Source: an uncultured bacterium
GTDB taxonomy: Bacteria > Chloroflexota > UBA5177 > JANWHV01
Direction of reading: 5' to 3'
DNA length: 64,000 nt
NCBI GenBank assembly: GCA_963827235.1
Contig: CAWHAE010000009.1
Coordinates: forward strand, 832,001-896,000
A program made the position numbers and the translations under genes. Of this stretch, positions 8,386 to 58,353 are shown one piece after another. The notes beneath the pieces were generated by a model. That model did not search any database. It worked only from the letters and a program-made list of their open reading frames with translations, and was not told where the DNA came from. Each line of letters opens with the position of its first letter. Position 1 is the stretch's first letter.

Positions 8386-8556
8386 GGTGCGACAGCGCAC
8401 CCAACGAGCTGTCAGCACATGCGGGCATTTGGCTGCCGGGGCGGACCCGCTCTGACACCGTGGCTTGAGGGTGAAGGACGCGCGATTGCAGCCAGTACGC
8501 CGCCCCGGTCCACGCCGGGGGGTGAAGACCACGGTCAGTGAAAAGGAATGGAAGCT

Positions 8557-37600: not shown

Positions 37601-37729
37601 CCCCTCGCATTCTATAGCCAATGTTGTGAATTAAGCACCATATTCTGTGCGAAACTGACCAAAGGGTGCAAGCCTGCACAGCGGGTGTGCTTTGCCCGAA
37701 CGCTGGAGCGAAGCGACAAGGGGGCTGCA

Positions 37730-38578: not shown

Positions 38579-38702
38579 TAGCAGTCCGCGGAACGAAGCC
38601 GCGGCACTGCAGTGAGAGCAGTGCCGGGCTGTAATCCTTCCACCTGATTCGGTGAGAGAGGGCATATGCCGTCTCGCCAATGAAGAATGGAACCCACTGA
38701 CG

Positions 38703-40166: not shown

Positions 40167-40184
40167 CAGGTTAGGAAAGACATG

Positions 40185-40214
40185 CCGGGGCAGCACATTG
40201 TGCTGCCCCGGTTT
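40185..40214 (+). terminator. Intercistronic hairpin (12-bp stem)
   Basis: ccggggcagcac-att-gtgctgccccgg followed by ttt, between SBP and permease. Confidence 0.7.
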
Positions 40215-40241
40215 GCCGGTTGAACCGCGAGGGGATCACGT

Positions 40242-42048: not shown

Positions 42049-42099
42049 TGTGGGACCACTGGGCAGATCACGGCGATGGCCGGTTGGAAAGGACTGAAG

Positions 42100-43137
42100 A
42101 TGACTTCTCTGGTACTTGAGCGAGCGCACGTGTTGAAGCTGCGAGATATCGACGTGCCGTCGACGCTGGGCCCGAACGACGTGCGCATCAAAATGCATAC
42201 GGTGGGAATCTGCGGCAGCGACGTCCACTACTACGAGCACGGCGCGATCGGCCAGTTCGTCGTCCGCGAGCCCATGGTGCTGGGCCACGAGGGCTCGGGC
42301 ACGGTGGTGGAAGTGGGCGGAGCAGTGCGCACACTGCAGGCCGGCGATCGAGTGTGCATGGAGCCGGGCATTCCCGACCCGAACAGCAGGGCTTCACGAC
42401 TTGGCCTGTACAACCTGGATCCTGCCGTGCGCTTCTGGGCCACGCCGCCGGTACATGGCTGCCTGACGCCCTTTGTGGTGCATCCGGCCGCATTCACCTA
42501 CAAGCTGCCCGACCAGGTCAGCTATCCCGAAGGAGCGATGGTCGAGCCGCTGGCCGTGGGCATGCACGCGGCGACCAAGGCCCAGATCAAGCCGGGTGAG
42601 CTCGCGGTGGTGTTGGGTGCGGGGACGATCGGCATGGTGACCGCGTTGGCGGCACTGGCTGCCGGCTGCGGCCGCGTAATCATCACGGACATCGAGCAGC
42701 CGAAGCTCGACCTGGCGGCACGGCTGGGGCCGATCACGCCGGTCAACGTTCGGGAGCAATCCCTGGCGCCGGTGGTGGAGGAGCTGACCGACGGATGGGG
42801 AGCGGACGTCGTCTTCGAGTGCAGCGGGAACGTGCGCGCCGCCGCCGCGGCCATCGAGCCCTTGTGTCCCGGCGGACGCATTGTATACATCGGCATGCCG
42901 GGCGAGCCCATCCCGTTCGACGTGGTTGCGGCTGCTGCCAAGGAGGCACGTGTAGAGACCGTCTTCCGCTATGCGCACGTCTATCCGCGGGCCGTGGCAC
43001 TGTTGGCAGGCGGGAGGATCGACGTCAAGCCGCTGCTGACGGACCAGTTCGCCTTCGAGCGAAGCATCGAAGCCTTTGAGTTCGCGGCGCACATGCCGCC
43101 GAGCTCGGTGAAGGTCTCCATCACGCTGCCGCAGTGA
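42100..43137 (+). CDS. Zn-dependent polyol (xylitol/sorbitol) dehydrogenase
   Basis: [41 protein letters not shown]. Confidence 0.92.
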
Positions 43138-43222
43138 TGCGAAAGCACGCTGCCGCGAGAATCTGGACCATCTCTCGAGCGGGCGTTGGGGCGTCGATCA
43201 GGCCTGGTATGTCGCCGGCAGG

Positions 43223-44725
43223 CTACGAGTCCGAGCCTGCTCCATCCAGCCAGGCCTGGTAGGCGGCATCGTAGTGTTCGCGATCGACCGGGTTGGGCAG
43301 AACGGTGGTGTGCCTGGCTAGATCGTGGCCGGCAGTAGCGACGTCCGCGGCGTAACCCGCACCTACCCAGGCACAGGCCGCTGCTCCAAGCGCCGCCGCC
43401 TCCGGCGCGCCTACGAGCAGCGGGATGCCCAGCACGTCTGCGACGATTTCGCGCCACAGCTTGCTGCGCGTCTGGCCACCGCCCACAAAGAGGGTCGAGA
43501 CGGCGGCACCGGTTACCTGCTGCAAGAGGCCGACATTGTAGCGCATCACAAAGGCGATATTCTCCAAGGTGGCGCGTGTGATCGCGGCGCGCGCCTTGGC
43601 CGCCGGCTCGCCGATCGGTACTCCCCGCAGGTCTCCAGTCCGCTGCACGATGTCGCGGCGGCGCAGGTCCGCTGCGCTGCCGCCAAGATAGGCGCGCAGG
43701 CCGGCGGTGCCGATCGGCGCCGTTCGTGCGGATCGATCCATGTCGTCGAACGTGGTTGGTCCCGCCTCCTCGCCATCGCGCGCCCACAGTAGATCGCGGA
43801 GCCAGCGGTAGCTCAGGCCGGTCGCGCCGGCATTGGCTTCCACGACCCACAGGCCGGGCACGACGTGACAGCGCGTCCACGTCCTCTCCTTGGCATCAAG
43901 GCGTGGCTCGGCAACTGTGAGCAGAATGGGTGTCGTCGTGCCTGCGATTGCTCCGGCCTGTGCCGGCTCGACTGCGCCCAGGCCGACCATACCGCACTGC
44001 CCATCGCCACCGCCGAGGACGATGGGCGTGCCGGGCATCAGGCCGAGACCCTCGGCCGCCGGACGCGACAATCCACCTACTACCCGACCGGCAACGCCCA
44101 CGCTGGGGAGGATATGCGCCGGTACGCCCGCGAGGTCGCAGATAGAGTCCGACCAGGTGCAACGCCTGATGTCAAACAGCAGGCTGGCCGAGGCGCTCGA
44201 AGGCTCGATGACCGCCTCGCCGCTCATCTTGTAGCAGAGCCAGCTATCGACCATGAACAGCTTCTGAACGGAATCGAACAGCGACGGCTCGTGGATCCGA
44301 AGCCAGCGCAGCCGTCCGGGGGCGTGCACCGCGTTCAGTCTCTGGCCGCTGGTCTCATAGATCAGCTTCCCATGGGTGGCGGCGAGTGCTTCGTTCTCCG
44401 CACTGCCACGCGCATCCATTGACGAGGCGGCGTGCAGCACGCGTCCATGGGCGCCGGTCAGGATCAGCGCTTCCCGTTGGCTGGTTGCGCTGATGGCGCG
44501 AACGGCTTGGGCACTGATGCCGCCCGATGCCATGGCACCTCGCGTGGCAATGCACAGATCAGACCACAACGCCTCGGCGTCGAAGACGCTGCTGCCGGGA
44601 ACGCTGGGCAAAGAGGTGTACGACCACTCGCGGTAGACCGAGGCGACGGCACGCCCGGATAGGTCACATACGAGACTGCGTCCGCCGCCAATACCCGCGT
44701 CGAGCGCAATAACGCACTCTTCCAT
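43223..44725 (-). CDS. FGGY carbohydrate kinase (LsrK/xylulokinase-like)
   Basis: ALDAGIGGGR, SATSQRE, GGGDGQCG, GGGQTRSKLW..IVADVLG. Confidence 0.9.
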   Translation of the reverse strand: MEECVIALDAGIGGGRSLVCDLSGRAVASVYREWSYTSLPSVPGSSVFDAEALWSDLCIATRGAMASGGISAQAVRAISATSQREALILTGAHGRVLHAASSMDARGSAENEALAATHGKLIYETSGQRLNAVHAPGRLRWLRIHEPSLFDSVQKLFMVDSWLCYKMSGEAVIEPSSASASLLFDIRRCTWSDSICDLAGVPAHILPSVGVAGRVVGGLSRPAAEGLGLMPGTPIVLGGGDGQCGMVGLGAVEPAQAGAIAGTTTPILLTVAEPRLDAKERTWTRCHVVPGLWVVEANAGATGLSYRWLRDLLWARDGEEAGPTTFDDMDRSARTAPIGTAGLRAYLGGSAADLRRRDIVQRTGDLRGVPIGEPAAKARAAITRATLENIAFVMRYNVGLLQQVTGAAVSTLFVGGGQTRSKLWREIVADVLGIPLLVGAPEAAALGAAACAWVGAGYAADVATAGHDLARHTTVLPNPVDREHYDAAYQAWLDGAGSDS

Positions 44726-44970
44726 TCGTGCGCCCCTCCTGCCACGGTAGCCCTATTGTGCCGCCTGCGCGCGGGCCCTAGCCGCTGAGACGGCCGATGA
44801 TATAGGGCCATCGGTGCATCGTACGAGCCCATTCTGCCGAATCGCCAGGATCGGCGCGACCTCGGTCGAGCATTCCCTATGCTACCACAGCAACTCAAGG
44901 GCCGGAGCGCAGGCGAGAGCACCAGGTGCACCCGTGACTGTTACATAATGCCCAGATGACTGTGCATTCT

Positions 44971-45000
44971 TTGACAGGCGGAGCGGTCAGTGTCTATCAT
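44971..45000 (+). promoter_or_regulatory. Sigma70 promoter TTGACA-18-TATCAT
   Basis: Upstream of the second DeoR; shares TTGACAGGC and an upstream tgtgc with the 37572 promoter. Confidence 0.65.
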
Positions 45001-45119
45001 AGGGCCGTGCTTGGCGAAGCGGTGCCTGTGGGTGACGGCGGCCGCAGGCGGCTGCTGCTGTCGGCTCGCACAGGGGCCCGCATCCGGCGCCTGCCGGCCC
45101 GGCTTCGTGGAGGAGATAG

Positions 45120-45938
45120 ATGCTTACGCCGAATGAACGGCGAGCGCGCATCATCGATCTGTTCGAGCGCCGGCCTTACTACAGCACCCTCGAGCTCAGC
45201 ACGCTGCTGCACACCTCACGAATGAGCGTGCGCCGCGATCTCCAGGGATTGGCGGGGGAAGGCGTTGTCAGTCTGGTACATGGCGGGGCCCAGCTCAACG
45301 TCAGCTCAACGATCGAGCGCGATATGCTGGGACGCAGCCAAGAGAATCGCCTCGAAAAGGAAGCGATTGGCTCCTTCGCCGCCGGCATGATCGGGTCCGG
45401 CGAGGAGATCGGCGTTGACGGGGGGAGCACCACCCTGGAGGTCGTGCGCCATATCGAACCCGGCTGCGGCCTGACCGTGGCGACGCACTCATTGCCCGTG
45501 ATGATGGAACTCGCCGGCCGGAAAGACATTACGCTCTTCGCGCTCGGAGGCACTCTACACCACGGCCATCTCGTGTTCACGGGTCCGACGGTGATCGCCA
45601 TGCTGGCCACCGTCCACCTTTCGACTCTGATACTCGGCACGAGCGGCATCGACGCCGAGGGCGGGCTGAGCTGCGGAGAAATCGCAGACGCAGAGACCAA
45701 GCGGGCGTTGATCCACGCCGCGGACCGCGTCATCGTGGTTGCCGACCATAGCAAGATCGGCCGCAGGCGATTGGCTATCGTCGCCTCGCTGAAGCCCGGC
45801 TACGTGCTGGTGACGGATTCGGGCGTGCGAGATGCCGACCGCGAGCGTTTGAGCCGGCTCGGCGTCGACGTGCGCGTCGTCGCGTGCGCCGCCGGTGAGC
45901 CTTCCGACGCAGGCCCCGCGCGACGCATCTCCTCATAG
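45120..45938 (+). CDS. DeoR/GlpR family transcriptional regulator (paralogue)
   Basis: MSVRRDL, VHGGA, DGGSTT, VADHSKIG. Confidence 0.93.
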   Translation: MLTPNERRARIIDLFERRPYYSTLELSTLLHTSRMSVRRDLQGLAGEGVVSLVHGGAQLNVSSTIERDMLGRSQENRLEKEAIGSFAAGMIGSGEEIGVDGGSTTLEVVRHIEPGCGLTVATHSLPVMMELAGRKDITLFALGGTLHHGHLVFTGPTVIAMLATVHLSTLILGTSGIDAEGGLSCGEIADAETKRALIHAADRVIVVADHSKIGRRRLAIVASLKPGYVLVTDSGVRDADRERLSRLGVDVRVVACAAGEPSDAGPARRISS

Positions 45939-46347
45939 ACTGCATGCGCGATCGCGACCTATGCATCCTGCCTGATGCACGTACGGCGTACGCCACTGCC
46001 GGACCGAGCACGTGACCGGAGCTTCCAGTCTGGAGGGATCGTGACCGTTCTCTGGACCCGCCGGCCGGACCATTCGATAAGGCGCACGCTCCGCAGCCGC
46101 TCAGGTGGCCCTTTCTCCTGAGAAAGGTGTCTCGCCGTGTAGTGGCGGGCCTTCCATTGTAGGGCATTTTTGGCGCGATTTGAAGGCTATACAGGCTGTC
46201 CACTTAGGGGTATTCTGAGGCATGGCCCAGGCCGGTGTCTTCGCACCGCGAAGTTGTGGCAGGATTCGCGGCGCGTAGGCTCGTCGTGCCGTGATCGCAT
46301 GGTGCCGGTGTAGAGCCGGCAGCCGTCAGAGTATCTGGAGGCGTGGA

Positions 46348-49300
46348 ATGCACCGTGCAATCCTCGATCTTGCAGCCCTGCGAGCGTCTCGTACCCACCC
46401 GGCCGGAGACTCCGCGGGACTCGCCTGTGACGACTTCAGCCTCACGCGGCGCAAGGCGCTTGGCCTGGCCGGCATCGCCGCGGCAGGTATCTCCCCGGCC
46501 CTTCGAGCGGTGGAAGGAAGTATTTTCGGCACCTTTGACCTGGTACGGAGCGGCAAGGGGCGAATCGCCTTCGTCTACGGCGGGGAAGAGCGATGGGTGA
46601 TCGATACGCGGCGCTTCTCGGGATCGCCTGTGCTGCACGTGGAACAGAGCGCGGATCGCATCCTGCTCGACCTACATGGTGCCTTTTACCCCGGAACGGA
46701 CTTCGCTGCCGACCTGCAGGCAGATATTCGTCGCGGTAGCGGCGGCTGGCATATCTGGCTGAAGTTGGTGGCCGGCGGGTTCTCTGCGGATGGTCCCTTC
46801 GTGCCCTGGCTGGCCGGCCTGGACAGTCTTCGCTCTCGCGTCCGCCTCTCCGGCGCGCCGATCCAGCTCGATCCGGCGACATCCCTGATCGTGACCGGCT
46901 TCGCGCAAGCGACGTATACACCCGACTGGGTAACCACGCTTCGCGGGAAGGGCGTTGCCAGCCTGCGCGGGCTGGGCTCTCCGCTGGTCTCCGATGTCTT
47001 GCGCCTTGCGCTACCGACGGCAGCCGAAACCGGCCTGCTGCGTGGGGCGGCGAAGCACACGCTTCTGCTGCTGCAGCGCGGTGACCGCACCTGGATGTTG
47101 AAGCCCGCGTTTCAGCCCGCCGCGCGGTGGCGGCTCAGCATCCCTGCGAAGGCGTTTGACTCTATCGTGATCGATCTGGGTGAAGATAGCGCCCACGGCC
47201 GCATCTCGGCACTCGTCGCCGAGGCGGGCGAGCCTATCGCCTTCATGCCGCACACCGGCTTCCTGGACGCGTCAGGGGGTGCGGTCGCGCTACCGCTGAG
47301 CGGGGCACGCTACGCCATAGCCTTCAATGCCGGCGGCAATCAGCACGCCCTGGTGGCGCGGTTCGCCGAGCAGTCGACGTGGGTGCAGGTGGGAACCGGC
47401 GCGGTGCAAGTGGGGAGCCAGCCCGGCACGCTGCCGTTCGAGATCCACGCGCGTGGCTCGACGGTGACGGCGGTCCGCTGCACGCCGGCCGTGCTGCAAG
47501 TCTCGCTGCCGGTCGCCGGCGCCGTGGCGGCGCCAACGAAGCTTAGCGCACCGGTGCACCTTGCCTTCGTGACCAAGGGTTTGGAGCGGCCGGGCACGGA
47601 TCACGCGGCGCAGATCGTGCTGACCGACCATCCGGCGAGCTCCTTCCAGCGCTTTACGCTGATCAACCCGCAGATCTCCGTCGTACGACCGGCCGACCTG
47701 ATGGCGATGACCTTCGAGTTCATCAACATGAAGATCGACGTCTCTGCGACGAACAAGCCGCCGCAAGCGGTGCCGCGCAGCGCCAAGCTGAAGCCCTACC
47801 TTGCCGTGCACTTTCAGGGCCAGAATATCGCCGAGCAGGCGTTCTTTCAAGTGGAGCAGCAGGGCGTGGCGGTGCCGACGCGGCCCTATCCGGGCTCCAG
47901 CGGCGTGACTGACCCAGACGCGGGGTCCACGAGCAAGGAGTTCCCGGACGGTGCGCCCTACTCTCCGGTGGGCGCCCGCCTGGCCGGCGACAGCCGGCTG
48001 GTGTTCTCACTGCCGGCAGGCGTGAAGAGCCTGGCTCTGACGTTGGACGATCTGCTGGATTGGTCGAAGTTCACGCCCAGCGTGCCGCCCACGGCTTTGC
48101 CGGCCGGAGGCTACACGAAGTCGAAGATCGCGGCGCCGCTGTCGACCGAGACCTCCCTGGAGATACCGTGGCGTCTCAGCATCTCGCCGAACGTGTTTTC
48201 GGGGTGGGTGCATGCGTTCAGGCCGGTGACGCACAACGGCTGGACAGAACTGTGGCACACACGCTTGGGCGTGAAGGTCACGCTGCCAAAGTCAGCATAT
48301 TCGCCAAGCCGGACCTTTCTTGTGGATACGCATTATGCCTACGAGGCGAGCGACACGTCCGTGGGGCGAACGTACGGTGTGACCATCGACGCCTACGTGG
48401 GCGGGCAGCCCTTCGACCTCCTCCAGGCCTGGCGGACGATCCGCGCCTCGTGGTCGCAAGACTACCTGCCGAACTACAACTACTCGAACGCCCTGGGCGA
48501 GAACGTGCCGTTTCGCATGTCGCTGAGCGGGCGGGATCGCATGCAGATCGTGATCCTGACCTCGGACTTCAGCAAGGCGGTACCACCGGCTGCGAAGGTC
48601 GCGATCCCCTTGCCGTTGGTGCCCAGGCAGATCGTTATTCTTCCCAAGGGGATCGAGACCGAGCCCGCCGCGTTCATCCCACCATCGCACTACAATCCCT
48701 TGCCGGTGCAGGTTGACCGCTTAATGCTGTCTACGCTCGGCGCCTGGGTGGACATGCGTGGGGCCTGGCCTCTTGCCGTCAACCTGGGTATCCCACTCGT
48801 GGAGTGGCGGCACCGGGGGACGCAGGGCCGCGACAATTACGTGCGCGTGGTCTACAAGGGATACCTGTTCCCCTTCGGCCATTCCGCCTCGCTGGTCAAG
48901 GTCACGGAGCGCAAGTTCTTCTACCAGAACGGGCGCAATGTCGCGTACCTCTTCCAGCGTATGTTCATCGTCGTGCGTGAGCCGATCAAGCTGTTCGGCA
49001 ACACCGGCATCTTGATGCCGTTGGCGCAGCCCGGGCACCAGGGCTCCATCGACAATGCCATGCCTTTCAAGCAGGTGGAGATCACCACCAAGACCACACC
49101 GGATCTCGATCCGCCGGACGGCAAGAGCATCCTGCCGCTCGGCCCCCACCTGACGAAGAGCCAGGGCCTCGATTCGACACAGGGGTTTCTGGATCAGGAC
49201 GATTTCTGGCCGCAGGTCGGCGGCACGGACTTCCAGTTCCACCTGATCGGGCAGGACACTGCCGGCCAGCGGACGGAGTTCACGTCGCCACTAGCCTTCA

Positions 49301-51450
49301 TCAGCGTGGAGAGCTACCTGTCGTTCGACGCCGACTATATGAACATGGTGCGAACAAAGTACAACTCCAACGCCAGCGGGTACGCCGCCCGGCGAACCCG
49401 ACCGTTGAGCGGTCAGAAGGTGGCCTTCGCGCCGCCGAACAAGCCGGGCGACACCACCTTGAACGCCACGGACATGACGTTCGACGTCTACGTGCCGCCG
49501 TCGCCGTCGCGGCAGGCGCTGATCAATGCCGACCAGCCGCGGTTCTATCCGATCATGGCGACATCTACGGTTGGCATACCGGCGGTGGAGGCGCTGCTGC
49601 ACTCGGGTCAGAAGCCGCAGATCAAGCTGAGCAGTCACTACCTGGAGAACAACCTGGGTGGTACCGCGAACGTGGGCGAGGTGTTCGCGGAGATTCTGGA
49701 TTCCAGCCAGGCAAAGGTCGCCTTTGGCGGCAGCAGCTCGGGCGGTACCAGCACGCCGGGTACGGTGACGCCCAACCTGGCGATCACCGCTCTCTCCCGG
49801 GTAACGGGGCCGGTCGGCGGCGATTTCGACAAGATAGCCGACGGCACGGCGGCAGACGGCGCCGCGTCGCAGATCGAGGACTTCCTGAAGAACTTCTTCG
49901 ATAGCGATGCGAAAATCCTGGGAGCCGTACCACTTTCCTCGATCATCAAGCTGCCGTCGCTGAAACCGCTGTTCCAGGTCCTCTCGCTTGTCCAGGCCGT
50001 GGAGAGTGCGCCCGACACGCTGAACCAGCTGATCACTGATGCGGTGGCTAAGCTGCAAGGAAACCTGGCTGCGCTCCAGGCCCAGGCGTTGGCAACTCTG
50101 CAGTCGGATCTGGCACCGTTGCGATCCGCCCTTGCCGACCTGCAGTCTCCGCTAAATGCCTTACACAGTGCACTCAACTCGCTGCCGTCGATTCTCACAG
50201 ACCTCCTGGGCGACGGCATCGGCACGATCATTTCGGACCTGGGCACCCTGATTTCGGACCTGACCTCGGTTATCACGGATCTGGACAAGCTGCTGGGCGA
50301 TCTCGGCTCGGCGAACGTGGGCGCTCTTTCGGGCGACGTCAGCGCGCTGCAGACGCCGATCACCTCGTTCCCAACCGACCTCAAGACGCTGGTGGACGAT
50401 CTGAACAACCTGCAGGGCATCAACCCGCTTCCGTTGCTCAAGCATGGAGAGTTGCCCACGGCTATCGACACCACGCTCACGTGGTCGCCGCATCTGCAGG
50501 ATTTCGCTCCGTTCAAGGCTCTGGACAAGTTCCTGAGCGTGACGGCCACCGTGCACATTCCGCTCGACGGCAGCAGCGACCCGTCGTTCAGCATCGTCGG
50601 CACACTCGGTAAAATAGGCATCGACCTTGCCGACATTATCTACGTCGGCTTCGCCGGGCTGGTCTTCAAAGCGTCCAGCGGCGAGAAGCCCGACGTGACC
50701 GTGCCCGACCCCGGTGTCGAGGTGATGTTCGAGGGCCCGCTCTCCTTCGTCAACGACCTCAAGGATGCGATCCCCTCGGATGGGTTCACCGACCCACCGT
50801 TCCTGAACATCACGGCCGACGGGGTGGAAGCAGGCTTCACCTTCGACCTGCCCAGCATCGGCGTGGGCATATTCAGCCTGGAGAACATCTCGCTGGGCGC
50901 CAAGGTCACCATTCCCTTCATCGGTAGCAGTCCGGCTCAGGTGTACTTCAACTTCTGCACGCGCGAGCATCCCTTCACGCTGACGGTCTCCATGCTCGGC
51001 GGCGGTGGGTTCTTCGGCATCAGCCTGGGGCTTGATGGGCTGGACATGCTGGAGGCATCGCTTGAGTTCGGCGCCGAGCTCTCGCTCGATTTCGGTATTG
51101 CCAGCGGCAGCGTCTCGGTCATGGCCGGCATCTACTTCAAGATGGAGAAGAGTCCGCATGACCAGACCATACTCACCGGATTCGTGCACATACACGGCGA
51201 GGTGGAGGTGCTCGGCGGCATCATCTCCGCCTCGATCGATGTCGAGCTGGATCTGACCTACGAGAAGGATGGCCACGACACCAAGGTAGTTGGTGAGGCC
51301 ACGCTCACCATCTCGGTGCATATCGTCTTCTTCAGCATTACGGTCTCGGCGTCGGTCCAGCGCGAGTTTGCCGGTTCGCATAACGATCCGACCTTCGCCG
51401 ACCAGGTGAGCGAGCAGAACTGGAACGACTACCTCTTGGCGTTTGCGTGA
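46348..51450 (+). CDS. Giant uncharacterised protein A (~1,700 aa): Tat-like signal, beta-rich, amphipathic helical insert
   Basis: GGAGG RBS; TRRKALGLAG signal; uninterrupted 5.1 kb frame with GC3 bias; alternating-hydrophobic beta C-terminus. Confidence 0.85.
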   Translation: MHRAILDLAALRASRTHPAGDSAGLACDDFSLTRRKALGLAGIAAAGISPALRAVEGSIFGTFDLVRSGKGRIAFVYGGEERWVIDTRRFSGSPVLHVEQSADRILLDLHGAFYPGTDFAADLQADIRRGSGGWHIWLKLVAGGFSADGPFVPWLAGLDSLRSRVRLSGAPIQLDPATSLIVTGFAQATYTPDWVTTLRGKGVASLRGLGSPLVSDVLRLALPTAAETGLLRGAAKHTLLLLQRGDRTWMLKPAFQPAARWRLSIPAKAFDSIVIDLGEDSAHGRISALVAEAGEPIAFMPHTGFLDASGGAVALPLSGARYAIAFNAGGNQHALVARFAEQSTWVQVGTGAVQVGSQPGTLPFEIHARGSTVTAVRCTPAVLQVSLPVAGAVAAPTKLSAPVHLAFVTKGLERPGTDHAAQIVLTDHPASSFQRFTLINPQISVVRPADLMAMTFEFINMKIDVSATNKPPQAVPRSAKLKPYLAVHFQGQNIAEQAFFQVEQQGVAVPTRPYPGSSGVTDPDAGSTSKEFPDGAPYSPVGARLAGDSRLVFSLPAGVKSLALTLDDLLDWSKFTPSVPPTALPAGGYTKSKIAAPLSTETSLEIPWRLSISPNVFSGWVHAFRPVTHNGWTELWHTRLGVKVTLPKSAYSPSRTFLVDTHYAYEASDTSVGRTYGVTIDAYVGGQPFDLLQAWRTIRASWSQDYLPNYNYSNALGENVPFRMSLSGRDRMQIVILTSDFSKAVPPAAKVAIPLPLVPRQIVILPKGIETEPAAFIPPSHYNPLPVQVDRLMLSTLGAWVDMRGAWPLAVNLGIPLVEWRHRGTQGRDNYVRVVYKGYLFPFGHSASLVKVTERKFFYQNGRNVAYLFQRMFIVVREPIKLFGNTGILMPLAQPGHQGSIDNAMPFKQVEITTKTTPDLDPPDGKSILPLGPHLTKSQGLDSTQGFLDQDDFWPQVGGTDFQFHLIGQDTAGQRTEFTSPLAFISVESYLSFDADYMNMVRTKYNSNASGYAARRTRPLSGQKVAFAPPNKPGDTTLNATDMTFDVYVPPSPSRQALINADQPRFYPIMATSTVGIPAVEALLHSGQKPQIKLSSHYLENNLGGTANVGEVFAEILDSSQAKVAFGGSSSGGTSTPGTVTPNLAITALSRVTGPVGGDFDKIADGTAADGAASQIEDFLKNFFDSDAKILGAVPLSSIIKLPSLKPLFQVLSLVQAVESAPDTLNQLITDAVAKLQGNLAALQAQALATLQSDLAPLRSALADLQSPLNALHSALNSLPSILTDLLGDGIGTIISDLGTLISDLTSVITDLDKLLGDLGSANVGALSGDVSALQTPITSFPTDLKTLVDDLNNLQGINPLPLLKHGELPTAIDTTLTWSPHLQDFAPFKALDKFLSVTATVHIPLDGSSDPSFSIVGTLGKIGIDLADIIYVGFAGLVFKASSGEKPDVTVPDPGVEVMFEGPLSFVNDLKDAIPSDGFTDPPFLNITADGVEAGFTFDLPSIGVGIFSLENISLGAKVTIPFIGSSPAQVYFNFCTREHPFTLTVSMLGGGGFFGISLGLDGLDMLEASLEFGAELSLDFGIASGSVSVMAGIYFKMEKSPHDQTILTGFVHIHGEVEVLGGIISASIDVELDLTYEKDGHDTKVVGEATLTISVHIVFFSITVSASVQREFAGSHNDPTFADQVSEQNWNDYLLAFA
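50221..50304 (+). repeat. Degenerate 21-bp coding tandem repeat (heptads)
   Basis: ggcacgatcatttcggacctg / ggcaccctgatttcggacctg / acctcggttatcacggatctg / gacaagctgctgggcgatctc. Confidence 0.65.
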
Positions 51451-51463
51451 AAGGAGGCTACGC

Positions 51464-54400
51464 GTGAAGAAGCAAGTGATCACCTGGACTGCCATTCCGC
51501 ACGGTCCGCAGGGGCCGTTGGCGTCGGGCGACAAGCTGGGCGTCAGCGTCTTCGTATCACCGCGCCTCCAGGAAAGCGGCACGCCGACGCTTGGCGACTT
51601 CCCGGACTGGCTCAAGTGGCCGGAGACGGTCGCTCCCATAGGCTTCAAGGTGGCGTTTGCCGGCGGACCTACGTTCGACGCGCACGTGGTAAGCGCACGG
51701 CCGGACATGGACCTGTGGCACGCCCTATTCACGGAGATGACGCCGATCATTCCCTTCGTGTTCGAGGATCGCACGAATCAAATCGTGCGATCCTACCCGG
51801 TTGGCAGGCTGCAGAACGACATCCAACAACGCTATCGGAACGTCATTCAGACCGTGGCAAAGACACCCAGCCAGTTTCCGGGTATTCGGGTTCTCTACGA
51901 GTCGTTCTCACCGCTGATGAACCGGCAGACGAGAGGAGCTACGCTCAGCCAGAACTTCACGGCGCAGCTTCGCGACCGCAAGATCAAGGCGTTCCGGCCG
52001 GACGAGCAGCCAGGCGGTATCGCCGGCGACTATCAGCAGGTCGACGCGTTCCTGCATCGCACCCCGGCAGGTTCCTTCACCTACACAGCAGATCCGGCGA
52101 CACATCCTGCGAGGCCGACGAAGGCCAACCTCGTCGACTCGTTTGACTTCCACAAGATGATCTCGGCACTGGGGGGTTATCCGGAGCTGCTGGTCAAGCT
52201 GGGCTTGGTGATCGAGCTGGAGATCCCGTTCGAAGCGAGCATACCGATGGGCGCGGCTGCGACGACGGTCTCCATCCTACCTTCCAGGTTTGGCGGCGCC
52301 CCGAACGTGCGCCCGAATACCCACTACTCGCTCGACAACAATAGTGGGTTCCGAGCAAGACCACAGCCGGGCTCCTATCTCACCGGCGATCTGCTGCTGG
52401 CGCTCAGCGACGGCAAGACCTTCGAAATCATGCAAACGGATGTCGGCGGCACATCCGTGAAGCTGCTCGGCATGGCGGAGAGCGTCCTCCAGCACGTGGA
52501 AAGGCCGATTGCCGGTCAGCCAATGAATCAGAGCGTGCCGTCGCTGCGCTCGGCAGGCATTTCCTTGATCCACACGGGCCGTGCCTACGATCTTGCGCAG
52601 CGCTTCCAGACGGCTGCCCAACAGAACGCAGCCGCCGAGAGCAATGCCCCGGTCGACCTGTACGCGGACGACCTGGTGCGCGGCTACGCCATCGACATAT
52701 GGCACAAGATGACCGGCAAGTGGCTCTCGATCAGCCGCAGGAACGGCACGTTCACGTTCAAACACGCCCCGGCGTCGAAGAGGGTCCTGCAGACGGAAGG
52801 CGAAGCTTGTGTGACCATGGCGGGCACTGAGGAGACCGGTACGCCCAACTCAGACCTGCACGTGCACGAGCAGATCTTCCGCTGGTCGGGTTGGAGCCTG
52901 GCGGCCCCTCGCCCGGTGACGCCGATCGGTATCGACGGCAACACGAGCACCCCTGAGACGCCGACGGAGCTCTCGGATCCCAACCTTACGCGGTACGGTC
53001 TGACGATCAACTTCAAGGCCCCTCCTCACAGTCTGCCCAAGCTGCGCTTCGGCCACTTTTACAAGGCGCGGGCGCGGATGGTCGACGTCGCCGGCAACAG
53101 TATCGATCCCACCGCGCCGGGCGCACAGCTTCCGGCCGTGCAGACGAATGCTGTCTACTACGCCCGCTGGGAGCCGGTGATTGCGCCGGCGATTGCCCTG
53201 CGCAGCTCCATCACCGGATCGCCGGGCGAGTCGATGGGCCGGCTGGTCATTCGCAGCGACTTCGATCGCAGCGTCGAGGCGTACTACGCGGACCAGTCTT
53301 CGCCGACCTACAACGAGTATGCCGAGCGGCACTTCCTTCCTCCCAAGACCAGCGAGATGATGGCCGAGACGCACGGCATGTTTGATAACCCACCGCCCCC
53401 GCAGGCCGGCGGCAAGTCGTGGTACGAGGTGATCAAGGACACCGACGTCAGTCTGCCGCAAGACACCAAGCAGGTGTTGACCCACACCGGGCCGGTCGTT
53501 GCTCCGGCCAACCCGCTCTCCAGTCCCCCTCCGCAGGTTATTCGGGGAGCGACATACACTCCCACTCCCCTGGATACCGATCATTTCCCTCTGCCGTATC
53601 TGCCGGACCCGCTGGGCGAAGGGGCGAGCTTTCTTGGTCTGCCGGGCATCAAGCCGGGAGCGGCCTTTCTCGCCGCTACATGGGGTGGCCACTGGCCGTA
53701 CTACGGCACGTTCCGGCTGTTGCTGAAAGGCATTGACGAGCATGCCTTGCCTGCGCTGCCGAAGTGGGTGACCAGCCCGCATCCACTGCTGACCGTCGAG
53801 CTGCCCAGGGGCGAGACTGTGACGGTGCAGTACAGCTCCCGACCGTTCGCCGCGGCGCTTGCCCTGCTCGGCATGTGGGACTGGATAGTGCTTTCCGGCC
53901 TGGGCGGCGCCTTGCTGAAGGCCGCTCAGGAAGGGCTCGTCTGGCTCCTCACGCCGTTCCACGAGATGACCCTGGTGCATGCCGTGCAGCACCCCCTGGT
54001 CAAGCCGGGGTTCTCGCAGCGGTTCTTCGCGGCACGCCAGCCCGGCGCTACTTCCGCGCTCTTGGTCGACATGCCCATGCCGATCAGCGGCAACAGCACG
54101 GTCAAGATGGATCTGACGGCTCAGTGGTACGAGCCGGTAGACGACGTGACTCAGACCGGACCCGCCGTACAGAGTCACAACGGGCACATCTCCGAGATTC
54201 CGATCAATTATGGTGACACCACGGTTGCGTTTCCCGCCGCCAATCCGGCTGAGGCGAGTGACAGGAACAAGCTGTTCACGCACGAGTTCAACAATACGAA
54301 GTATCACAGGGTTTCGTACACTGCCGTTGGTACAACCCGATACCGCGAGTACTTCCCGTTTACCAAAGATGAGCTCGCTGCCAAGCCCGATCTCATCACT

Positions 54401-55456
54401 CGGTCGAGCGACACCGGGGCGATTAGCGCGCCAACTCCGGACCACGCGGCCGCGGCGAGCGTCGTCGACGCCACTCACAGGCTGCCGTCGGGTGTGATCG
54501 ACGTGCCGAGCTCGGCGCGGCCGCAGTCGCCGAACCTGCTCTACGTGCTGCCTATCTTCTCGCATTCGGCAGCGGCCGTGCCCTCGGGAATAGGCACGCT
54601 GCGGCTGGGCGGTGGCCTGCGCGTGTACCTCGAGCGACCGTGGTACTCGTCCGGCGAGGGTGAGCTCCTGGGCGTGGTGCTGCCGGCCGTACACCCACCA
54701 TTGAGCTTCGTGCCGCGGCAGCCAGATCCCTCGCACATCACGCAGTGGGGCATCGATCCCATCTGGCGGTCGTTTAATCCGCCCACGCCGACTTCGCCTC
54801 CGTTGAGCGCCTTCGTCCACGCCGTGCGCACCGGCAACAATCTGACCATCGACGAACAAGCAGGCGTCACCGTGGCAGTGGCCGGGCACGAGGTCACCTA
54901 CGACCCCGATCGCCGGCTGTGGTATGCCGACGTGCTGATCAGCGGCGGGTTGGCATACTACCCGTTCATCAGGCTCGTGCTGGCGCGCTACCAGCCGAAC
55001 TCGATCGCCAACGCCTACCTGTCGCGCCTGGTGCTGGCAGACTTTTCGCAGATCGCGCCGGACCGCCTGGCGACGGTGATCTTCGACGGCAAGGTACCAC
55101 AGCGCATGACCGTCACCGTGGTGGGGCAGGCACCGCTGCGCACGACCAACATCATCGAAGTGAGCATGGAGCAGCAGATCAGCAGATATCCGGAGGCCGA
55201 CGCGGACGTCGGCTGGGTGCCGGTGCAGCAGGATCCCGTGGTGCTACACGGCGCGACGGTAAAGAACGAGACAGTGTGGACCGGTGCATATTCCCTGCCC
55301 AAGCTCTCGACACCGCTGCCGCCGCTTCGGCTGGTGCTGCGTGAGTACGAGCTGTATCCGGGATCGGGCGCGGCGGAGCTTGCCGCCACCCTTGTTCAGG
55401 GCACGGCCATGCGGCTGGTGTATGCGGAGACCCTGGACGTGCTGCTGCCGATCTGA
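51464..55456 (+). CDS. Giant uncharacterised protein B (~1,330 aa), Pro/Trp/beta-rich, no signal peptide
   Basis: AAGGAGG RBS right after the A stop; 4 kb frame; Ig/FN3-like motif YKARARMVDVAGN. Confidence 0.85.
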   Translation: MKKQVITWTAIPHGPQGPLASGDKLGVSVFVSPRLQESGTPTLGDFPDWLKWPETVAPIGFKVAFAGGPTFDAHVVSARPDMDLWHALFTEMTPIIPFVFEDRTNQIVRSYPVGRLQNDIQQRYRNVIQTVAKTPSQFPGIRVLYESFSPLMNRQTRGATLSQNFTAQLRDRKIKAFRPDEQPGGIAGDYQQVDAFLHRTPAGSFTYTADPATHPARPTKANLVDSFDFHKMISALGGYPELLVKLGLVIELEIPFEASIPMGAAATTVSILPSRFGGAPNVRPNTHYSLDNNSGFRARPQPGSYLTGDLLLALSDGKTFEIMQTDVGGTSVKLLGMAESVLQHVERPIAGQPMNQSVPSLRSAGISLIHTGRAYDLAQRFQTAAQQNAAAESNAPVDLYADDLVRGYAIDIWHKMTGKWLSISRRNGTFTFKHAPASKRVLQTEGEACVTMAGTEETGTPNSDLHVHEQIFRWSGWSLAAPRPVTPIGIDGNTSTPETPTELSDPNLTRYGLTINFKAPPHSLPKLRFGHFYKARARMVDVAGNSIDPTAPGAQLPAVQTNAVYYARWEPVIAPAIALRSSITGSPGESMGRLVIRSDFDRSVEAYYADQSSPTYNEYAERHFLPPKTSEMMAETHGMFDNPPPPQAGGKSWYEVIKDTDVSLPQDTKQVLTHTGPVVAPANPLSSPPPQVIRGATYTPTPLDTDHFPLPYLPDPLGEGASFLGLPGIKPGAAFLAATWGGHWPYYGTFRLLLKGIDEHALPALPKWVTSPHPLLTVELPRGETVTVQYSSRPFAAALALLGMWDWIVLSGLGGALLKAAQEGLVWLLTPFHEMTLVHAVQHPLVKPGFSQRFFAARQPGATSALLVDMPMPISGNSTVKMDLTAQWYEPVDDVTQTGPAVQSHNGHISEIPINYGDTTVAFPAANPAEASDRNKLFTHEFNNTKYHRVSYTAVGTTRYREYFPFTKDELAAKPDLITRSSDTGAISAPTPDHAAAASVVDATHRLPSGVIDVPSSARPQSPNLLYVLPIFSHSAAAVPSGIGTLRLGGGLRVYLERPWYSSGEGELLGVVLPAVHPPLSFVPRQPDPSHITQWGIDPIWRSFNPPTPTSPPLSAFVHAVRTGNNLTIDEQAGVTVAVAGHEVTYDPDRRLWYADVLISGGLAYYPFIRLVLARYQPNSIANAYLSRLVLADFSQIAPDRLATVIFDGKVPQRMTVTVVGQAPLRTTNIIEVSMEQQISRYPEADADVGWVPVQQDPVVLHGATVKNETVWTGAYSLPKLSTPLPPLRLVLREYELYPGSGAAELAATLVQGTAMRLVYAETLDVLLPI

Positions 55457-55502: not shown

Positions 55503-55556
55503 CGAGGGCCGTCCGCCGGGATCCGGGCACGAAGATCCCCGGTGCGACGGCCCTCG
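55503..55556. terminator. Long hairpin between convergent genes
   Basis: cgagggccgtc...gacggccctcg arms with an extended inner stem. Confidence 0.55.
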
Positions 55557-56745: not shown

Positions 56746-58092
56746 ATGTCATCTCATCGCGAGGCACCGGGTATCCTGAACGATCCGGCAGCCGACAGCA
56801 CCGACCTGTACGCGTTCGTGAGCCCCGATCAGCCGGACACCGTGACGATTGTCTGCAACTACGTGCCGCTCGAGGCTCCAGACGGTGGTCCTAATTTCTT
56901 CCAGTTCGGCGATGACGTTCTCTACGAGATTCGCATCGACAACACCGGCGACGGCGTTGCCGAGGTGGTCTACCAGTTCACATTCCACACCGAAGTGCGG
57001 AACCCGGACACGTTTCTCTACAACACGGGACCGATCGCCGCGCTCGACAGCCCGAACTGGAATCGGCGCCAGTTCATGAAGGTGACCAAGGTCGTGAAGG
57101 GCCAGTCGACCGTTCTGGGCACCGAGCTTGCCTGTCCGCCGTGCAATATCGGCCCGCGATCGACGCCCAACTACGCGGCACTGGCCCAGGCAGCCATACA
57201 CACGCTTCCCGGAGGCGTGAAGGTGTTTGCGGGCCAGCGCCGCGAGGGCTTCTACATCGACCTGGGCGCGATCTTCGACCTCGGGGACCTGAGGCCCTTC
57301 CAGAATCTTCATCTGATCCCCTCGCCGGCCAGCCTCGGCGTGGATGCAACCAAGACCGTGAACGTGCATTCCATTGCCATACAGGTGCCTATTGCCAGCC
57401 TCACGCGTGACGGCTCGAAGCCGACCAGCGTAGCGGATTCCCGCGCCGTTATCGGCGTATGGTGCGATGCCAGGCGGCAGAAGGCTGCGGTACAGGGCGA
57501 AGCGGTGGGACCGTGGGGCCAGGTTTCTCGTCTCGGCAATCCGCTGATCAACGAGGTGATCATCCCGATGGGCCGGAAAGACGAGTGGAACGTCAAGGAT
57601 CCGGCGCAGGACTCGCTGTTCCTCCAGTACGTGCAGCATCCCGAGCTGGCGGGACTGCTTCCCGTGCTGTATCCCAAAGTCTTTCCCAACCTTGCCGCTT
57701 ACACCAAGCCGCGCGCCGATCTGGCCGCCATCTTGATGACCGGCATCCCCACCGGCGTCGTTCCGGGCTTCCAGAACTTCACGGGTACCACGCCGGCCGA
57801 TATGCTGCGCCTGAACGTTGCCGTCCCGCCGGCGTCGACGCCCAACGCGCTCGGCGTGGTCGGCGGCGACCTGGCCGGCTACCCGAACGGCCGGCGCGTC
57901 ACGGACGACGTGTTCACGATCGAGCTTCGCGCGGTGGCCGGCGTCACGATTCCGCTCGTGGACAAGACCTTCACCCCGGACGCCGCGGCGTCCAAGGTGT
58001 CGGACAACCTCACGCCGTCCGGCGATCGCTTCATCAGCAGCTTCCCCTATCTCGGCACGCCGCTCGACGGCTACAACACGCCCAGCTCCTGA
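56746..58092 (+). CDS. DUF4331 domain protein
   Basis: MSSHREAP, DSTDLYAF, QVSRLGNPLINEV, DMLRLN, GYPNGRR..DD, FPYL. Confidence 0.93.
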   Translation: MSSHREAPGILNDPAADSTDLYAFVSPDQPDTVTIVCNYVPLEAPDGGPNFFQFGDDVLYEIRIDNTGDGVAEVVYQFTFHTEVRNPDTFLYNTGPIAALDSPNWNRRQFMKVTKVVKGQSTVLGTELACPPCNIGPRSTPNYAALAQAAIHTLPGGVKVFAGQRREGFYIDLGAIFDLGDLRPFQNLHLIPSPASLGVDATKTVNVHSIAIQVPIASLTRDGSKPTSVADSRAVIGVWCDARRQKAAVQGEAVGPWGQVSRLGNPLINEVIIPMGRKDEWNVKDPAQDSLFLQYVQHPELAGLLPVLYPKVFPNLAAYTKPRADLAAILMTGIPTGVVPGFQNFTGTTPADMLRLNVAVPPASTPNALGVVGGDLAGYPNGRRVTDDVFTIELRAVAGVTIPLVDKTFTPDAAASKVSDNLTPSGDRFISSFPYLGTPLDGYNTPSS

Positions 58093-58107
58093 TCTGGACA
58101 CTGGTCC

Positions 58108-58147
58108 CAGGCCGCGGTCGCCGTTTCTCTCGTGCGGCCGCGGCCTG
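58108..58147. terminator. GC-rich hairpin after DUF4331
   Basis: caggccgcggtcgc...gcggccgcggcctg. Confidence 0.5.
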
Positions 58148-58353
58148 ACGATGCGTGCGGCCGGGGCTCATTTGCCGGCGTGGGGGATATTCTGGGCCGG
58201 CAGACCGGCGCGTTGCGAGAATCCTCAAAACGCCCGGCGGCCGGGCCACAGCTGAGCAGGGACCCGGCGGCATCAGTCCGCCGGGTTTCCGTGTCGACAA
58301 AGATCAGGCAACCGGCCTCGGATCTCGATCTCCGGCAGAGCAAGGCGGCTTGC

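What the first reader, a model, noticed from the sequence alone, without database searches (positions are those of the whole stretch)
46348..55456. Two-gene operon of giant uncharacterised proteins: candidate Tat-exported envelope or extracellular machine
Seen in sequence: a ~1,700-aa ORF and a ~1,330-aa ORF sit 13 bp apart, with an AAGGAGG RBS between them and a hairpin after the second. The 9 kb unit has no enzyme, toxin, phage or transporter motif that I can recognise. A carries a twin-arginine-like signal (TRRKALGLAG). It continues with a ~400-aa beta-rich region, a motif-dense core (RPADLMAMTFEF, ELWHTRLG, GRDNYVRVVYKGYLFPFGH, PNLAITALSRVTGPVGG) and a helical insert. Its last ~330 aa are Gly-rich strands with alternating hydrophobic residues (GGGGFFGISLG, GSVSVMAGIYF, GEATLTISVHIVFFSITVS). 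B has no signal peptide and is rich in Pro/Trp/Tyr motifs (FRWSGWSLAAPRP, LPYLPDP, TTRYREYF, RPWYSSGEGELLGVV, YYPFIRLVLARYQP), with Ig/FN3-like strands. From memory, unverified, these motifs recur in paired 'hypothetical' giants in other phyla. Inference: A and B form a complex that folds in the cytoplasm and is co-exported by Tat, with B as a hitchhiker. A's one-sided hydrophobic beta sheet suggests a lipid-binding groove (AsmA/TamB/RBG- or DUF6603-like) or a membrane-inserting module, and B could be a scaffold.
Basis: partly seen in the sequence, partly recalled or inferred. Interest (0 to 1): 0.85.

Follow-up and report, generated by a model that had tools for sequence, protein, structure and literature searches.

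The report
Widespread unnamed giant two-protein envelope module
Two very large neighbouring genes of unknown function are always found as a pair in bacteria of many phyla, and they probably encode a two-protein complex that is exported folded and acts at a membrane or the cell wall.

Summary
A (46348-51450, 1700 aa) and B (51464-55456, 1330 aa) lie 13 bp apart, each behind a GGAGG-type site, and a strong hairpin follows B. Neither matches Pfam, NCBIfam, PHROGs, PADLOC or PDB sequences.

The pairing is obligate. In 77 of 80 loci from over a dozen phyla, A lies directly upstream of B; the other three contigs end there. A second pair lies in the same genome. No other neighbour is conserved. B has 4049 representative clusters, all unnamed.

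A carries a twin-arginine signal. It recurs in 87 of 120 close homologues but in only about half of the distant loci, and Bacillus, Paenibacillus, Bradyrhizobium and Geobacter lack it.

A complex prediction passed modestly (0.74 against a best control of 0.52). It docks A's conserved C-terminal tail on invariant B motifs. Some B relatives carry lectin or peptidoglycan-binding add-ons.

Best reading: a Tat-exported heteromeric complex that acts on a membrane or the envelope. Its function is unproven.

The parts
46337..46341 (+). GGAGG ribosome-binding site of A, 6 nt before the ATG
46348..51450 (+). Gene A, 1700 aa plus stop
46348..46383 (+). A residues 1-12: conserved extreme N-terminal motif (consensus M.R.RLNL.ALR). 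It is kept even in long forms without an RR motif.
46444..46518 (+). A residues 33-57: twin-arginine (Tat-type) signal-like segment, with TRRKAL, a Gly/Ala-rich h-region and a basic c-region (SPALRA)
46519..47667 (+). A residues ~58-440: optional N-terminal beta-rich domain. It is present in 'long' forms (33 loci) and absent in 'short' forms (30 loci). It was not modelled.
47668..49857 (+). A residues ~441-1170: universal conserved core (RPADLM..FEF, ELWHTRLG, GRDNYVRVVYKGYLFPFGH). The model is mostly confident. No clear relative was found among solved or viral structures.
49960..50430 (+). A residues 1205-1361: four-helix bundle with heptad-like repeats. It is the source of the sub-threshold coiled-coil hits.
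50461..51369 (+). A residues 1372-1674: Gly-rich beta-hairpin meander with strands of up to 19 residues, one face hydrophobic and one polar/acidic. Residues 1479-1683 align to outer-membrane barrel walls.
51388..51447 (+). A residues 1681-1700: conserved C-terminal tail (W..Y..AFA), predicted to dock on B
51451..51457 (+). AAGGAGG ribosome-binding site of B
51464..55456 (+). Gene B, 1330 aa plus stop, with no signal peptide
51464..53461 (+). B residues 1-666: N-terminal alpha/beta module. It is bounded by the low-confidence linker 667-694 and is the part predicted to hold A's C-terminal domain.
52865..53041 (+). B residues 468-526: invariant FRWSGWSLAAPRP and LPKLRFG motifs, which form the lowest-error contacts with A's tail
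53546..55453 (+). B residues 695-1330: run of FN3/Ig-like beta-sandwich domains. In some relatives the C-terminal end carries add-on binding domains.
55503..55556 (+). Strong GC-rich hairpin 47 nt after the stop of B, without a U tract

Best explanation
A and B are the two subunits of one self-contained, horizontally mobile module, and they assemble into a heteromeric complex in the cytoplasm. B's N-terminal module clamps A's conserved C-terminal tail and lies against A's one-sided hydrophobic beta domain. In this organism the complex is taken across the cytoplasmic membrane by the Tat pathway through A's twin-arginine signal, with signal-less B riding along. Outside the cytoplasm, A's amphipathic, barrel-wall-like beta domain engages or inserts into a lipid membrane, with the four-helix bundle as a movable element. 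B's FN3-like array, and in relatives its lectin or peptidoglycan-binding add-ons, hold the complex to glycans or cell wall. The biological role is open; antagonism of other cells and envelope function are both possible.

Shown: obligate pairing, conservation, absence of any named domain, the signal motif, strand amphipathicity and fold-level likenesses.

Supported by a model only: the A-B interface.

Inferred: export, hitchhiking, membrane insertion and the biological role.
For: Pairing:
- A lies directly upstream of B on the same strand in 77 of 80 loci from many phyla. The other 3 loci (L023, L054, L085) have under 251 bp of contig upstream of B.
- A paralogous pair lies on another contig of the same genome.
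- Pairwise identities of A and B correlate (r 0.74; 0 of 999 Mantel permutations reach it; 62 protein pairs).

Autonomy:
- No neighbour cluster occurs in more than 7 of 77 loci.
- No Pfam family occurs in more than 1 of 38 adjacent same-strand ORFs.

Interface:
- Score 0.74 against a best control of 0.52. This mark was reached by 58 of 80 solved complexes and by 2 of 110 mismatched pairs.
- The runs share at least 18% of their contacts, and the partner's pLDDT is at least 79.
- The lowest-error contacts join A's last residues to B 477-486, 518-526 and 654. These overlap the invariant columns W474, G476, W477, L479, R483, L524, R528 in B and the nearly invariant W1192, Y1195, F1199 (A1 numbering) in A.

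Export:
- An RR motif plus a hydrophobic stretch is present in 87 of 120 close homologues.
- TatC is present in the genome.
- B has no signal peptide.
- Hitchhiker export of signal-less partners is an established Tat mode (abstracts of PMC4273604 and PMC10924467, seen in the listing).

Membrane-active part:
- All 19 of 19 model strands are amphipathic.
- Omp85/BamA and LptD were not found in this genome, which is 95.9% complete. The domain is therefore unlikely to be a BAM-assembled channel of the producer.

Extracytoplasmic hints from add-ons on B relatives:
- Fucose lectin on P0181 and P0239.
- PG_binding_1 and Laminin_G_3, on 1 each of the 26 long representatives scanned.
Against: - The Tat motif is not universal. 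A strict rule finds it in 32 of 64 loci, with 6 more by eye. Neither A nor B has any signal in the Bacillus plasmid, Paenibacillus, Bradyrhizobium, Geobacter or Streptoalloteichus. Export by Tat therefore cannot be essential to the family's function.
- One B relative carries an FHA domain, which is usually cytoplasmic.
- A plus B is about 3030 residues. From recall, that is larger than any documented Tat cargo. The passages I read in PMC9251779 gave no size limit.
- The conserved N-terminal motif before the RR segment is unusual for a cleaved signal.
- In the complex test, one control that kept B scored 0.52, and A's domain had a pLDDT of only about 50.
- Conservation of 35-40% identity across phyla over the full length is high for a fast-evolving toxin.
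- There is no experimental or expression evidence.
Confidence: 0.35

Rival explanations
1. A static cell-envelope or surface structure. The exported A-B complex is a structural or adhesive component (S-layer-like, sheath or wall-anchored scaffold) with no membrane-inserting activity. The amphipathic sheet serves for self-assembly.
For: B has FN3/Ig-like arrays. Some B relatives carry PG_binding_1, Laminin_G_3 or lectin add-ons. The S-layer protein SbsC is a weak Foldseek hit for A (E 9e-3). Conservation is high and full-length.
Against: Distribution is patchy and accessory: B was found in 11 of 41 related genomes, G000 included, and in 5 of 31 genera. The pair occurs on megaplasmids. It has no anchoring motif or conserved assembly partners. 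Many lineages lack any export signal.
Confidence: 0.2
2. A lipid-binding or lipid-transfer complex. A's large amphipathic beta sheets form a lipid cavity or groove, as in large lipid transfer proteins or AsmA/TamB-like proteins, and B is a scaffold.
For: The Foldseek top hits for A are microsomal triglyceride transfer protein (E 1.4e-5, prob 0.54), lipovitellin (E 2.5e-5), vitellogenin and ApoB100. They show the same order of beta, helical and beta-sheet parts. The strands have one hydrophobic face.
Against: The TM-scores are 0.07-0.08 with rmsd above 34 A. None of these chains is in the top 50 by Z in the second look. Pfam gives no Vitellogenin_N or AsmA match. The C-terminal domain aligns best to barrel walls.
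Confidence: 0.12
3. A cytoplasmic or inner-membrane-anchored machine, for example a defence or stress module. The RR segment is an uncleaved N-terminal anchor where present, and the complex works inside the cell.
For: About half of the distant loci have no signal on either protein. The module is a two-gene cassette in variable contexts, occurs on plasmids and has paralogues, which is typical of accessory defence genes. One B relative has an FHA add-on. A conserved N-terminal motif lies upstream of the RR segment.
Against: PADLOC gives no match. No ATPase, nuclease or other enzymatic domain was found. The lectin and peptidoglycan-binding add-ons point outside the cytoplasm. The RR motif, weak h-region and basic c-region are typical of Tat signals.
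Confidence: 0.13
4. A Tat-exported heteromeric enzyme that acts on cell-wall or other glycans. The many invariant Asp, His, Glu and Arg residues would form an unrecognised active site.
For: Invariant charged residues include B D228, H230, D326, E469, R622, E635 and H839, and the ELWH and GRD..H..TERK motifs in A. Some relatives carry glycan or peptidoglycan-binding add-ons. Tat commonly exports folded hydrolases (recalled).
Against: Pfam, NCBIfam, Foldseek and VIA found no likeness to a catalytic fold or motif. Part of the invariant set is explained by the predicted A-B interface.
Confidence: 0.1

Closest known systems
Tat 'hitchhiker' heteromers (e.g. PaoABC; hydrogenase and DMSO-reductase subunit pairs, the latter recalled)
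   Same: One subunit carries an S/T-R-R signal and the partner has none. The genes are adjacent, and assembly is presumed to precede export (abstracts of PMC4273604 and PMC10924467 seen).
   Different: Known cases are cofactor-bearing redox enzymes of modest size. Here there are no cofactor motifs (3 Cys in A and 1 in B), and the two subunits together are about 3030 residues. The signal is missing in about half of the lineages.
Outer-membrane beta-barrels and type V autotransporter beta domains (CymA, OmpG, FhaC, BrkA, EspP)
   Different: The signal is Tat-type rather than Sec-type. The protein ends in AFA, not an aromatic residue. The host lacks Omp85 and LptD. The family occurs in Bacillus, Paenibacillus and Streptomyces. 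No sequence match was found.
DUF6603 (PF20248) giant proteins
   Same: They are giant bacterial proteins with Gly-rich amphipathic beta hairpins. They are also the nearest named clusters in embedding space to A 1360-1700 (0.82-0.83).
   Different: There is no HMM hit at E up to 1 and none in this genome. There is no tblastn match. hhalign gives probability 0.1 against a two-sequence profile. The operon partners differ: Laminin_G_3 and metallo-beta-lactamase-fold proteins.
Large lipid transfer proteins (MTP, lipovitellin, vitellogenin, ApoB)
   Same: The order is beta region, helical region, then large amphipathic sheets. They are the weak Foldseek top hits.
   Different: TM is 0.07-0.08. There is no Pfam match, and they are not among the top 50 by Z.
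Multi-subunit giant toxins and two-component pore formers (Tc toxins, YaxAB/AhlBC/ClyA-type; comparison from recall)

Membership tests
Tat (twin-arginine) substrate | N-terminal S/T-R-R-x-F/L-L-type motif followed by a weakly hydrophobic h-region and often a basic c-region | tested here: met
   TRRKALGLAGIAAAGISPALRA is at residues 33-54. The same motif is in 87 of 120 close homologues.
Tat (twin-arginine) substrate | Tat translocase encoded in the genome | tested here: met
   TatC (PF00902), 185 bits, at G000:C8:306398-307030
Tat (twin-arginine) substrate | Export depends on Tat | not testable with these tools
   Needs fractionation in wild type against a tatC mutant. Across the family the signal is present in only 32 of 64 loci by the strict rule, plus 6 by eye.
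Tat hitchhiker pair | Signal-less partner that binds the signal-bearing subunit before export | tested here: inconclusive
   B has no signal. The predicted interface scores 0.74 against a best control of 0.52. Binding and co-export are not shown.
DUF6603 (PF20248) | Match to the family HMM above 27 bits | tested here: not met
   There is no hit at E up to 1 for A. The family search of the own genome found none, while two genomes of the same phylum gave 485-499 bits.
DUF6603 (PF20248) | Remote homology by profile-profile comparison | tested here: inconclusive
   hhalign probability is 0.1, but the DUF6603 side had only 2 sequences. An embedding lead of 0.82-0.83 remains.
AsmA/TamB/RBG-type bridge lipid transporters | Long continuous beta-taco with a hydrophobic groove; AsmA/DUF490-type domains | tested here: inconclusive
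   There is no Pfam match. None is listed among the Foldseek or VIA rows, but an unlisted family is not excluded.
Large lipid transfer proteins | Vitellogenin_N-type beta barrel plus helical domain plus open lipid-binding sheets | tested here: inconclusive
   Foldseek gives E 1.4e-5 to 2.5e-5, prob about 0.5 and TM 0.07-0.08. They are not in the top 50 by Z. There is no Pfam match.
BAM-dependent outer-membrane beta-barrel / type V autotransporter | C-terminal membrane beta-barrel fold | tested here: inconclusive
BAM-dependent outer-membrane beta-barrel / type V autotransporter | Host has an outer membrane with Omp85/BamA; C-terminal aromatic beta-signal; Sec signal | tested here: not met
   Omp85 and LptD were not found in the genome, which is 95.9% complete. 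A ends in AFA. The signal is Tat-like. The family is present in Bacillus, Paenibacillus and Streptomyces.
Phage or contractile-injection structural proteins | Match to phage protein families or structures; phage neighbours | tested here: not met
   PHROGs gives only coiled-coil noise. There was no hit in 50,697 phage records. BFVD hits have TM of at most 0.10. One of 38 neighbours had a gp19 tail-tube domain.
Known anti-phage defence systems | Match to a PADLOC model | tested here: not met
   No match for A or B at E up to 0.1

The most novel reading that the evidence does not exclude
The pair is a previously unrecognised, phylum-spanning class of two-component membrane-inserting machine. It would be a giant pre-assembled complex, exported folded by Tat where a signal is present. 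B holds A's barrel-forming amphipathic domain in a soluble state by gripping its C-terminal tail. A then releases that domain into a target or envelope membrane, without BAM, in hosts with or without an outer membrane.
Probability: 0.22. Interest if true: 0.85.

Novelty: categorically new. Interest (0 to 1): 0.72.

Why it matters
B alone has 4049 representative clusters at 50% identity. It occurs from Chloroflexota and Acidobacteriota to the Bacillus cereus group, Rhizobium, Cupriavidus and Streptomyces replicons.

Despite this reach, neither protein has a Pfam or NCBIfam model, a solved relative or a name. Four full-text searches found no paper on it.

A 9 kb module kept intact across that range must do something useful. 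If it is exported as one complex, it would stretch the known size range of Tat cargo. If A's domain inserts into membranes, it would be a new route to beta-sheet membrane insertion in bacteria that lack BAM.

At the least, two large families could now be defined and given a testable interface: A's last 20 residues against B 468-526.

Tried and rejected
**Families and sequence searches.** Pfam, NCBIfam, PHROGs and PADLOC on A and B gave nothing real. PDB sequence search gave only coiled-coil hits for A and none for B.

**DUF6603.**
- The family was absent from the own genome.
- Two weak hits in other genomes (L091, L092, refetched as L095, L096) gave no tblastn match to A or B.
- hhalign gave probability 0.1.
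- I therefore rejected membership and kept DUF6603 only as a lead.

**A against B.** hhalign found no relation.

**Fold searches.**
- A against BFVD gave nothing convincing.
- No AsmA/TamB-type chain, phage baseplate or toxin fold appeared among the rows for A. That is an absence from the lists only.

**Fused forms.** A search for B-containing proteins of 2329-5000 aa found none. This is weak evidence.

**Neighbourhood.** No partner is conserved beyond the pair. The window's downstream genes (DUF4331 and a 610-aa ORF) gave no tblastn match in any fetched related locus. No B insertion or deletion tracks the long or short form of A.

**Expression and occurrence.** No sequencing run was listed and no RNA holder was listed.

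**Literature.**
- 'DUF6603' returned 0 papers.
- Two broader term sets returned nothing relevant.
- The Tat hitchhiker search gave background papers, of which I saw only the listing and the starts of the abstracts.
- In PMC9251779 I read the passages found for 'kDa', 'hitchhiker' and 'largest'. None states a Tat cargo size limit, so the limit I mention is recalled.
- Supplementary files were not opened.

My second call, sent in the same turn, was answered with a format error. I did not try the tool again.

Full report
**1. What is there**

The window holds two long open frames on the + strand.
- A most likely starts at ATG 46348, six bases after GGAGG, and ends at 51450, giving 1700 aa.
- B starts at GTG 51464, six bases after AAGGAGG, and ends at 55456, giving 1330 aa.
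- Thirteen bases separate them.
- The N-termini of homologues agree with both starts.
- A GC-rich hairpin at 55503-55556 (-44.8 kcal/mol, z -5.3, 0 of 200 shuffles as stable) follows B. It has no U tract and was not picked up by the consensus terminator scan.

**2. No named family**

- Pfam and NCBIfam give only sub-threshold coiled-coil hits at A 1208-1356 and nothing for B.
- PHROGs and PADLOC give nothing.
- PDB sequence search gives only coiled-coil matches for A and none for B.
- In the large protein collection the listed homologues are unnamed or 'hypothetical', apart from one automatic label 'putative outer membrane channel' on a Chloroflexi MAG pair.
- The protein atlas finds only unnamed clusters for B at 0.98.

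**3. The pair is obligate and self-contained**

It kept 80 loci. By record title these come from:
- Chloroflexota, Acidobacteriota, Armatimonadota, Actinomycetota
- Bacillota (Paenibacillus, Symbiobacteriaceae, Eubacteriales)
- Pseudomonadota (Bradyrhizobium) and Geobacter
- Bacteroidota, Chlorobiota, Kapaibacteria, Balneolales, Rhodothermales
- Verrucomicrobiota, Aminicenantes, WS1 and others

tblastn finds A immediately upstream of B on the same strand in 77 of the 80 loci. The other three (L023, L054, L085) have less than 251 bp of contig before B, so the count is 77 of 77 testable loci.

The window's own genome holds a second pair, about 50% identical, on contig C18.

Pairwise identities of A and B correlate (r 0.74; 0 of 999 Mantel permutations; 62 pairs of proteins). 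Any two genes that share a history would do this to some degree.

Nothing else is conserved around the pair.
- No cluster of neighbouring ORFs occurs in more than 7 of 77 loci, and those clusters are close relatives.
- No Pfam family occurs in more than 1 of 38 adjacent same-strand ORFs.
- A third gene of about 650-710 aa without a Pfam match follows B, or lies within about 2.5 kb of the pair, only in eight loci of the Bacteroidota-Chlorobiota group.
- The window's own neighbours are a sugar-utilisation cluster upstream and a DUF4331 gene downstream. The downstream genes are not found at the other loci.

**4. Reach**

- B 1-1200 finds 4049, 2932 and 1774 representative clusters at E up to 1e-3, 1e-10 and 1e-30.
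- The distribution is patchy. B was found in 11 of 41 related genomes (own included), in 4 of 4 in the genus and in 5 of 31 genera.
- B occurs in 16 plasmid or chromid records: Bacillus cereus group 7, Rhizobium 3, Streptomyces 3, Cupriavidus 2, Diaphorobacter 1. It occurs in no phage record.
- In the Bacillus bombysepticus plasmid both genes are annotated 'hypothetical protein'.

**5. The signal**

A residues 33-57 read TRRKALGLAGIAAAGISPALRAVEG. This is a twin-arginine motif, a weak Gly/Ala-rich hydrophobic stretch and a basic c-region.
- The same arrangement is in 87 of 120 of the best A homologues. Several of the remaining 33 begin inside the hydrophobic stretch, which suggests miscalled starts.
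- TatC is encoded in the genome.
- Among the more distant loci a strict rule finds the motif in 32 of 64: 22 long forms and 10 short forms.
- Six more (L021, L033, L068, L076, L078, L080) show an RR motif by eye, which the rule rejects because of a Lys.
- The motif is clearly missing in Bradyrhizobium, Geobacter, both Paenibacillus, Streptoalloteichus, several Anaerolineae and the Bacillus plasmid.
- B never shows a signal.
- An extreme N-terminal motif (M.R.RLNL.ALR) precedes the RR segment and is kept in RR-less long forms. I cannot explain it. A binding site for a chaperone or for B is one possibility.

**6. Architecture**

A comes in a long form with residues about 58-440 (33 loci) and a short form that starts at about residue 440 (30 loci). 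In 14 loci the form could not be judged because the contig cuts A.

The model of A 501-1700 has mean pLDDT 76.0 and pTM 0.62.
- It has a mostly confident beta-rich core.
- A C-terminal meander of long hairpins follows.
- A 1479-1683 aligns to outer-membrane barrel walls:
- All 19 model strands in A 1372-1674 have one hydrophobic face and one polar, often acidic, face.
- Foldseek's top PDB rows for A are large lipid transfer proteins, but with TM 0.07-0.08. They are not in the top 50 by Z.
- The genome, 95.9% complete, shows no Omp85/BamA and no LptD. The controls rang in 7 and 2 of the 14 reference genomes. In this host the domain is therefore unlikely to be a BAM-assembled channel.

The model of B 1-1200 is confident, with mean pLDDT 89.5 and pTM 0.80.
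- An N-terminal alpha/beta module (1-666) is followed by a low-confidence linker (667-694) and then beta-sandwich domains.

**7. Do A and B touch?**

I sent one complex job: A 1370-1700 with B 1-666, each with its alignment.
- The verdict was that the model supports binding but does not show it.
- The score was 0.74 and the best of 3 controls was 0.52. This mark was reached by 58 of 80 solved complexes and by 2 of 110 mismatched pairs.
- The runs agree in at least 18% of contacts, and the partner's pLDDT is at least 79.
- The pass is modest. The control that kept B and swapped A's domain scored 0.52, and A's domain had a pLDDT of about 50.
- The lowest-error contacts join the last residues of A (…NWNDYLLAFA) to B 477-486, 518-526 and 654.
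- These fall in the invariant FRW.GWSL..PRP and LP.LRFG motifs of B and the nearly invariant W, Y, F, A of A's tail. The predicted interface thus accounts for conservation that was otherwise unexplained.
- No similar solved complex is known to me, so a pass from memory is unlikely.

**8. Hints on location**

Some B relatives carry C-terminal add-ons.
- Fucose-specific lectin: P0181 and P0239 above the cut-off, P0235 below it (6 proteins scanned).
- PG_binding_1, Laminin_G_3, an ASH/HYDIN-type Ig domain and fn3: one each of the 26 longest representatives scanned.
- One FHA plus Yop-YscD_cpl domain: P0236.

The glycan and wall binders point outside the cytoplasm. The FHA domain points the other way.

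**9. Reading**

The shown facts fit a self-contained, horizontally spread two-subunit module. I think the most likely mechanism (0.35) has these steps.
- The complex assembles in the cytoplasm, with B gripping A's tail and lying on its amphipathic domain.
- In this organism it is exported by Tat, with B as hitchhiker.
- It acts at a membrane or the envelope through A's beta domain, while B's sandwich array binds the surface.

The steps from 'exported' onward are inference. The main objection is that about half of the lineages lack any signal, so either release is by other means there or the site of action is not what I infer.

The rivals are:
- a static surface or wall structure (0.20)
- a cytoplasmic or anchored machine such as a defence module (0.13)
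- a lipid-binding complex (0.12)
- an unrecognised glycan-active enzyme (0.10)

**10.

- Pairing, the Tat-like signal, the one-sided sheet and B's Ig/FN3 strands are confirmed.
- The hitchhiker idea is consistent with the evidence but untested.
- DUF6603 membership is not met: no HMM hit, no hit in the own genome, no tblastn match and hhalign probability 0.1. An embedding lead remains.
- An AsmA/TamB-like groove found no support.
- 'Membrane-inserting module' fits the fold matches better.

**11. Novelty and verdict**

Neither protein can be filed under a known family or system by sequence or fold, and four text searches found nothing on it. I rate the pair as lying outside known kinds. The caveat is that unknown function is not the same as a new mechanism. 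Interest is 0.72.

Noticed in passing
L099 (G000:C18:14000-30000), about 8265-8638: In the paralogous pair, A' loses homology in its main frame near L099 8320. The last ~68 codons of the tail (ending ...WDNYWAAFA) read in another frame. This is a frameshift or an assembly error exactly in the part predicted to dock on B.
   Followed up: partly
window 46348-46383, and homologues: A conserved extreme N-terminal motif (M.R.RLNL.ALR) lies upstream of the twin-arginine segment. It is retained in long forms that lack the RR motif (Bradyrhizobium, Bacillus plasmid). This is unusual for the n-region of a cleaved signal and remains unexplained.
   Followed up: partly
L026 14378-16504, L027 14466-16415, L028 14424-16565, L037 11269-13401, L064 14548-16473; tblastn matches also in L046, L059, L060: A third gene of about 650-710 aa without a Pfam match follows B or lies near the pair, but only in Bacteroidota, Chlorobiota, Kapaibacteria, Balneolales and Rhodothermales loci. 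It may be a lineage-specific accessory.
   Followed up: partly
window 56746-59964: A DUF4331 gene (448 aa, E 1.4e-141) is followed by a 610-aa ORF with no Pfam match. Neither gave a tblastn match in any fetched related locus.
   Followed up: partly
window 37685-45938: A sugar-utilisation cluster lies upstream: two DeoR regulators, an ABC solute-binding protein and two permeases, a zinc alcohol dehydrogenase and an FGGY kinase. It appears unrelated to the pair.
   Followed up: no
L093 4072-15429 and L094 4661-15908: True DUF6603 giants (1443 and 1432 aa) in two genomes of the same phylum sit in a conserved operon. They follow a Laminin_G_3 protein and a metallo-beta-lactamase-fold protein and precede an unnamed 627/839-aa protein.
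   Followed up: partly
P0238 (B homologue, 1415 aa), residues about 1270-1288: A weak LAGLIDADG_3 hit (24.7 bits against a cut-off of 22.5, with no stretch passing on its own) may be an intein or homing-endonuclease remnant in a B gene.
   Followed up: no
G154 (same genus): C8:125875-129934, C10:1285957-1289892, C4:30584-34315: One relative has three B loci, so the module multiplies within genomes of this genus.
   Followed up: no
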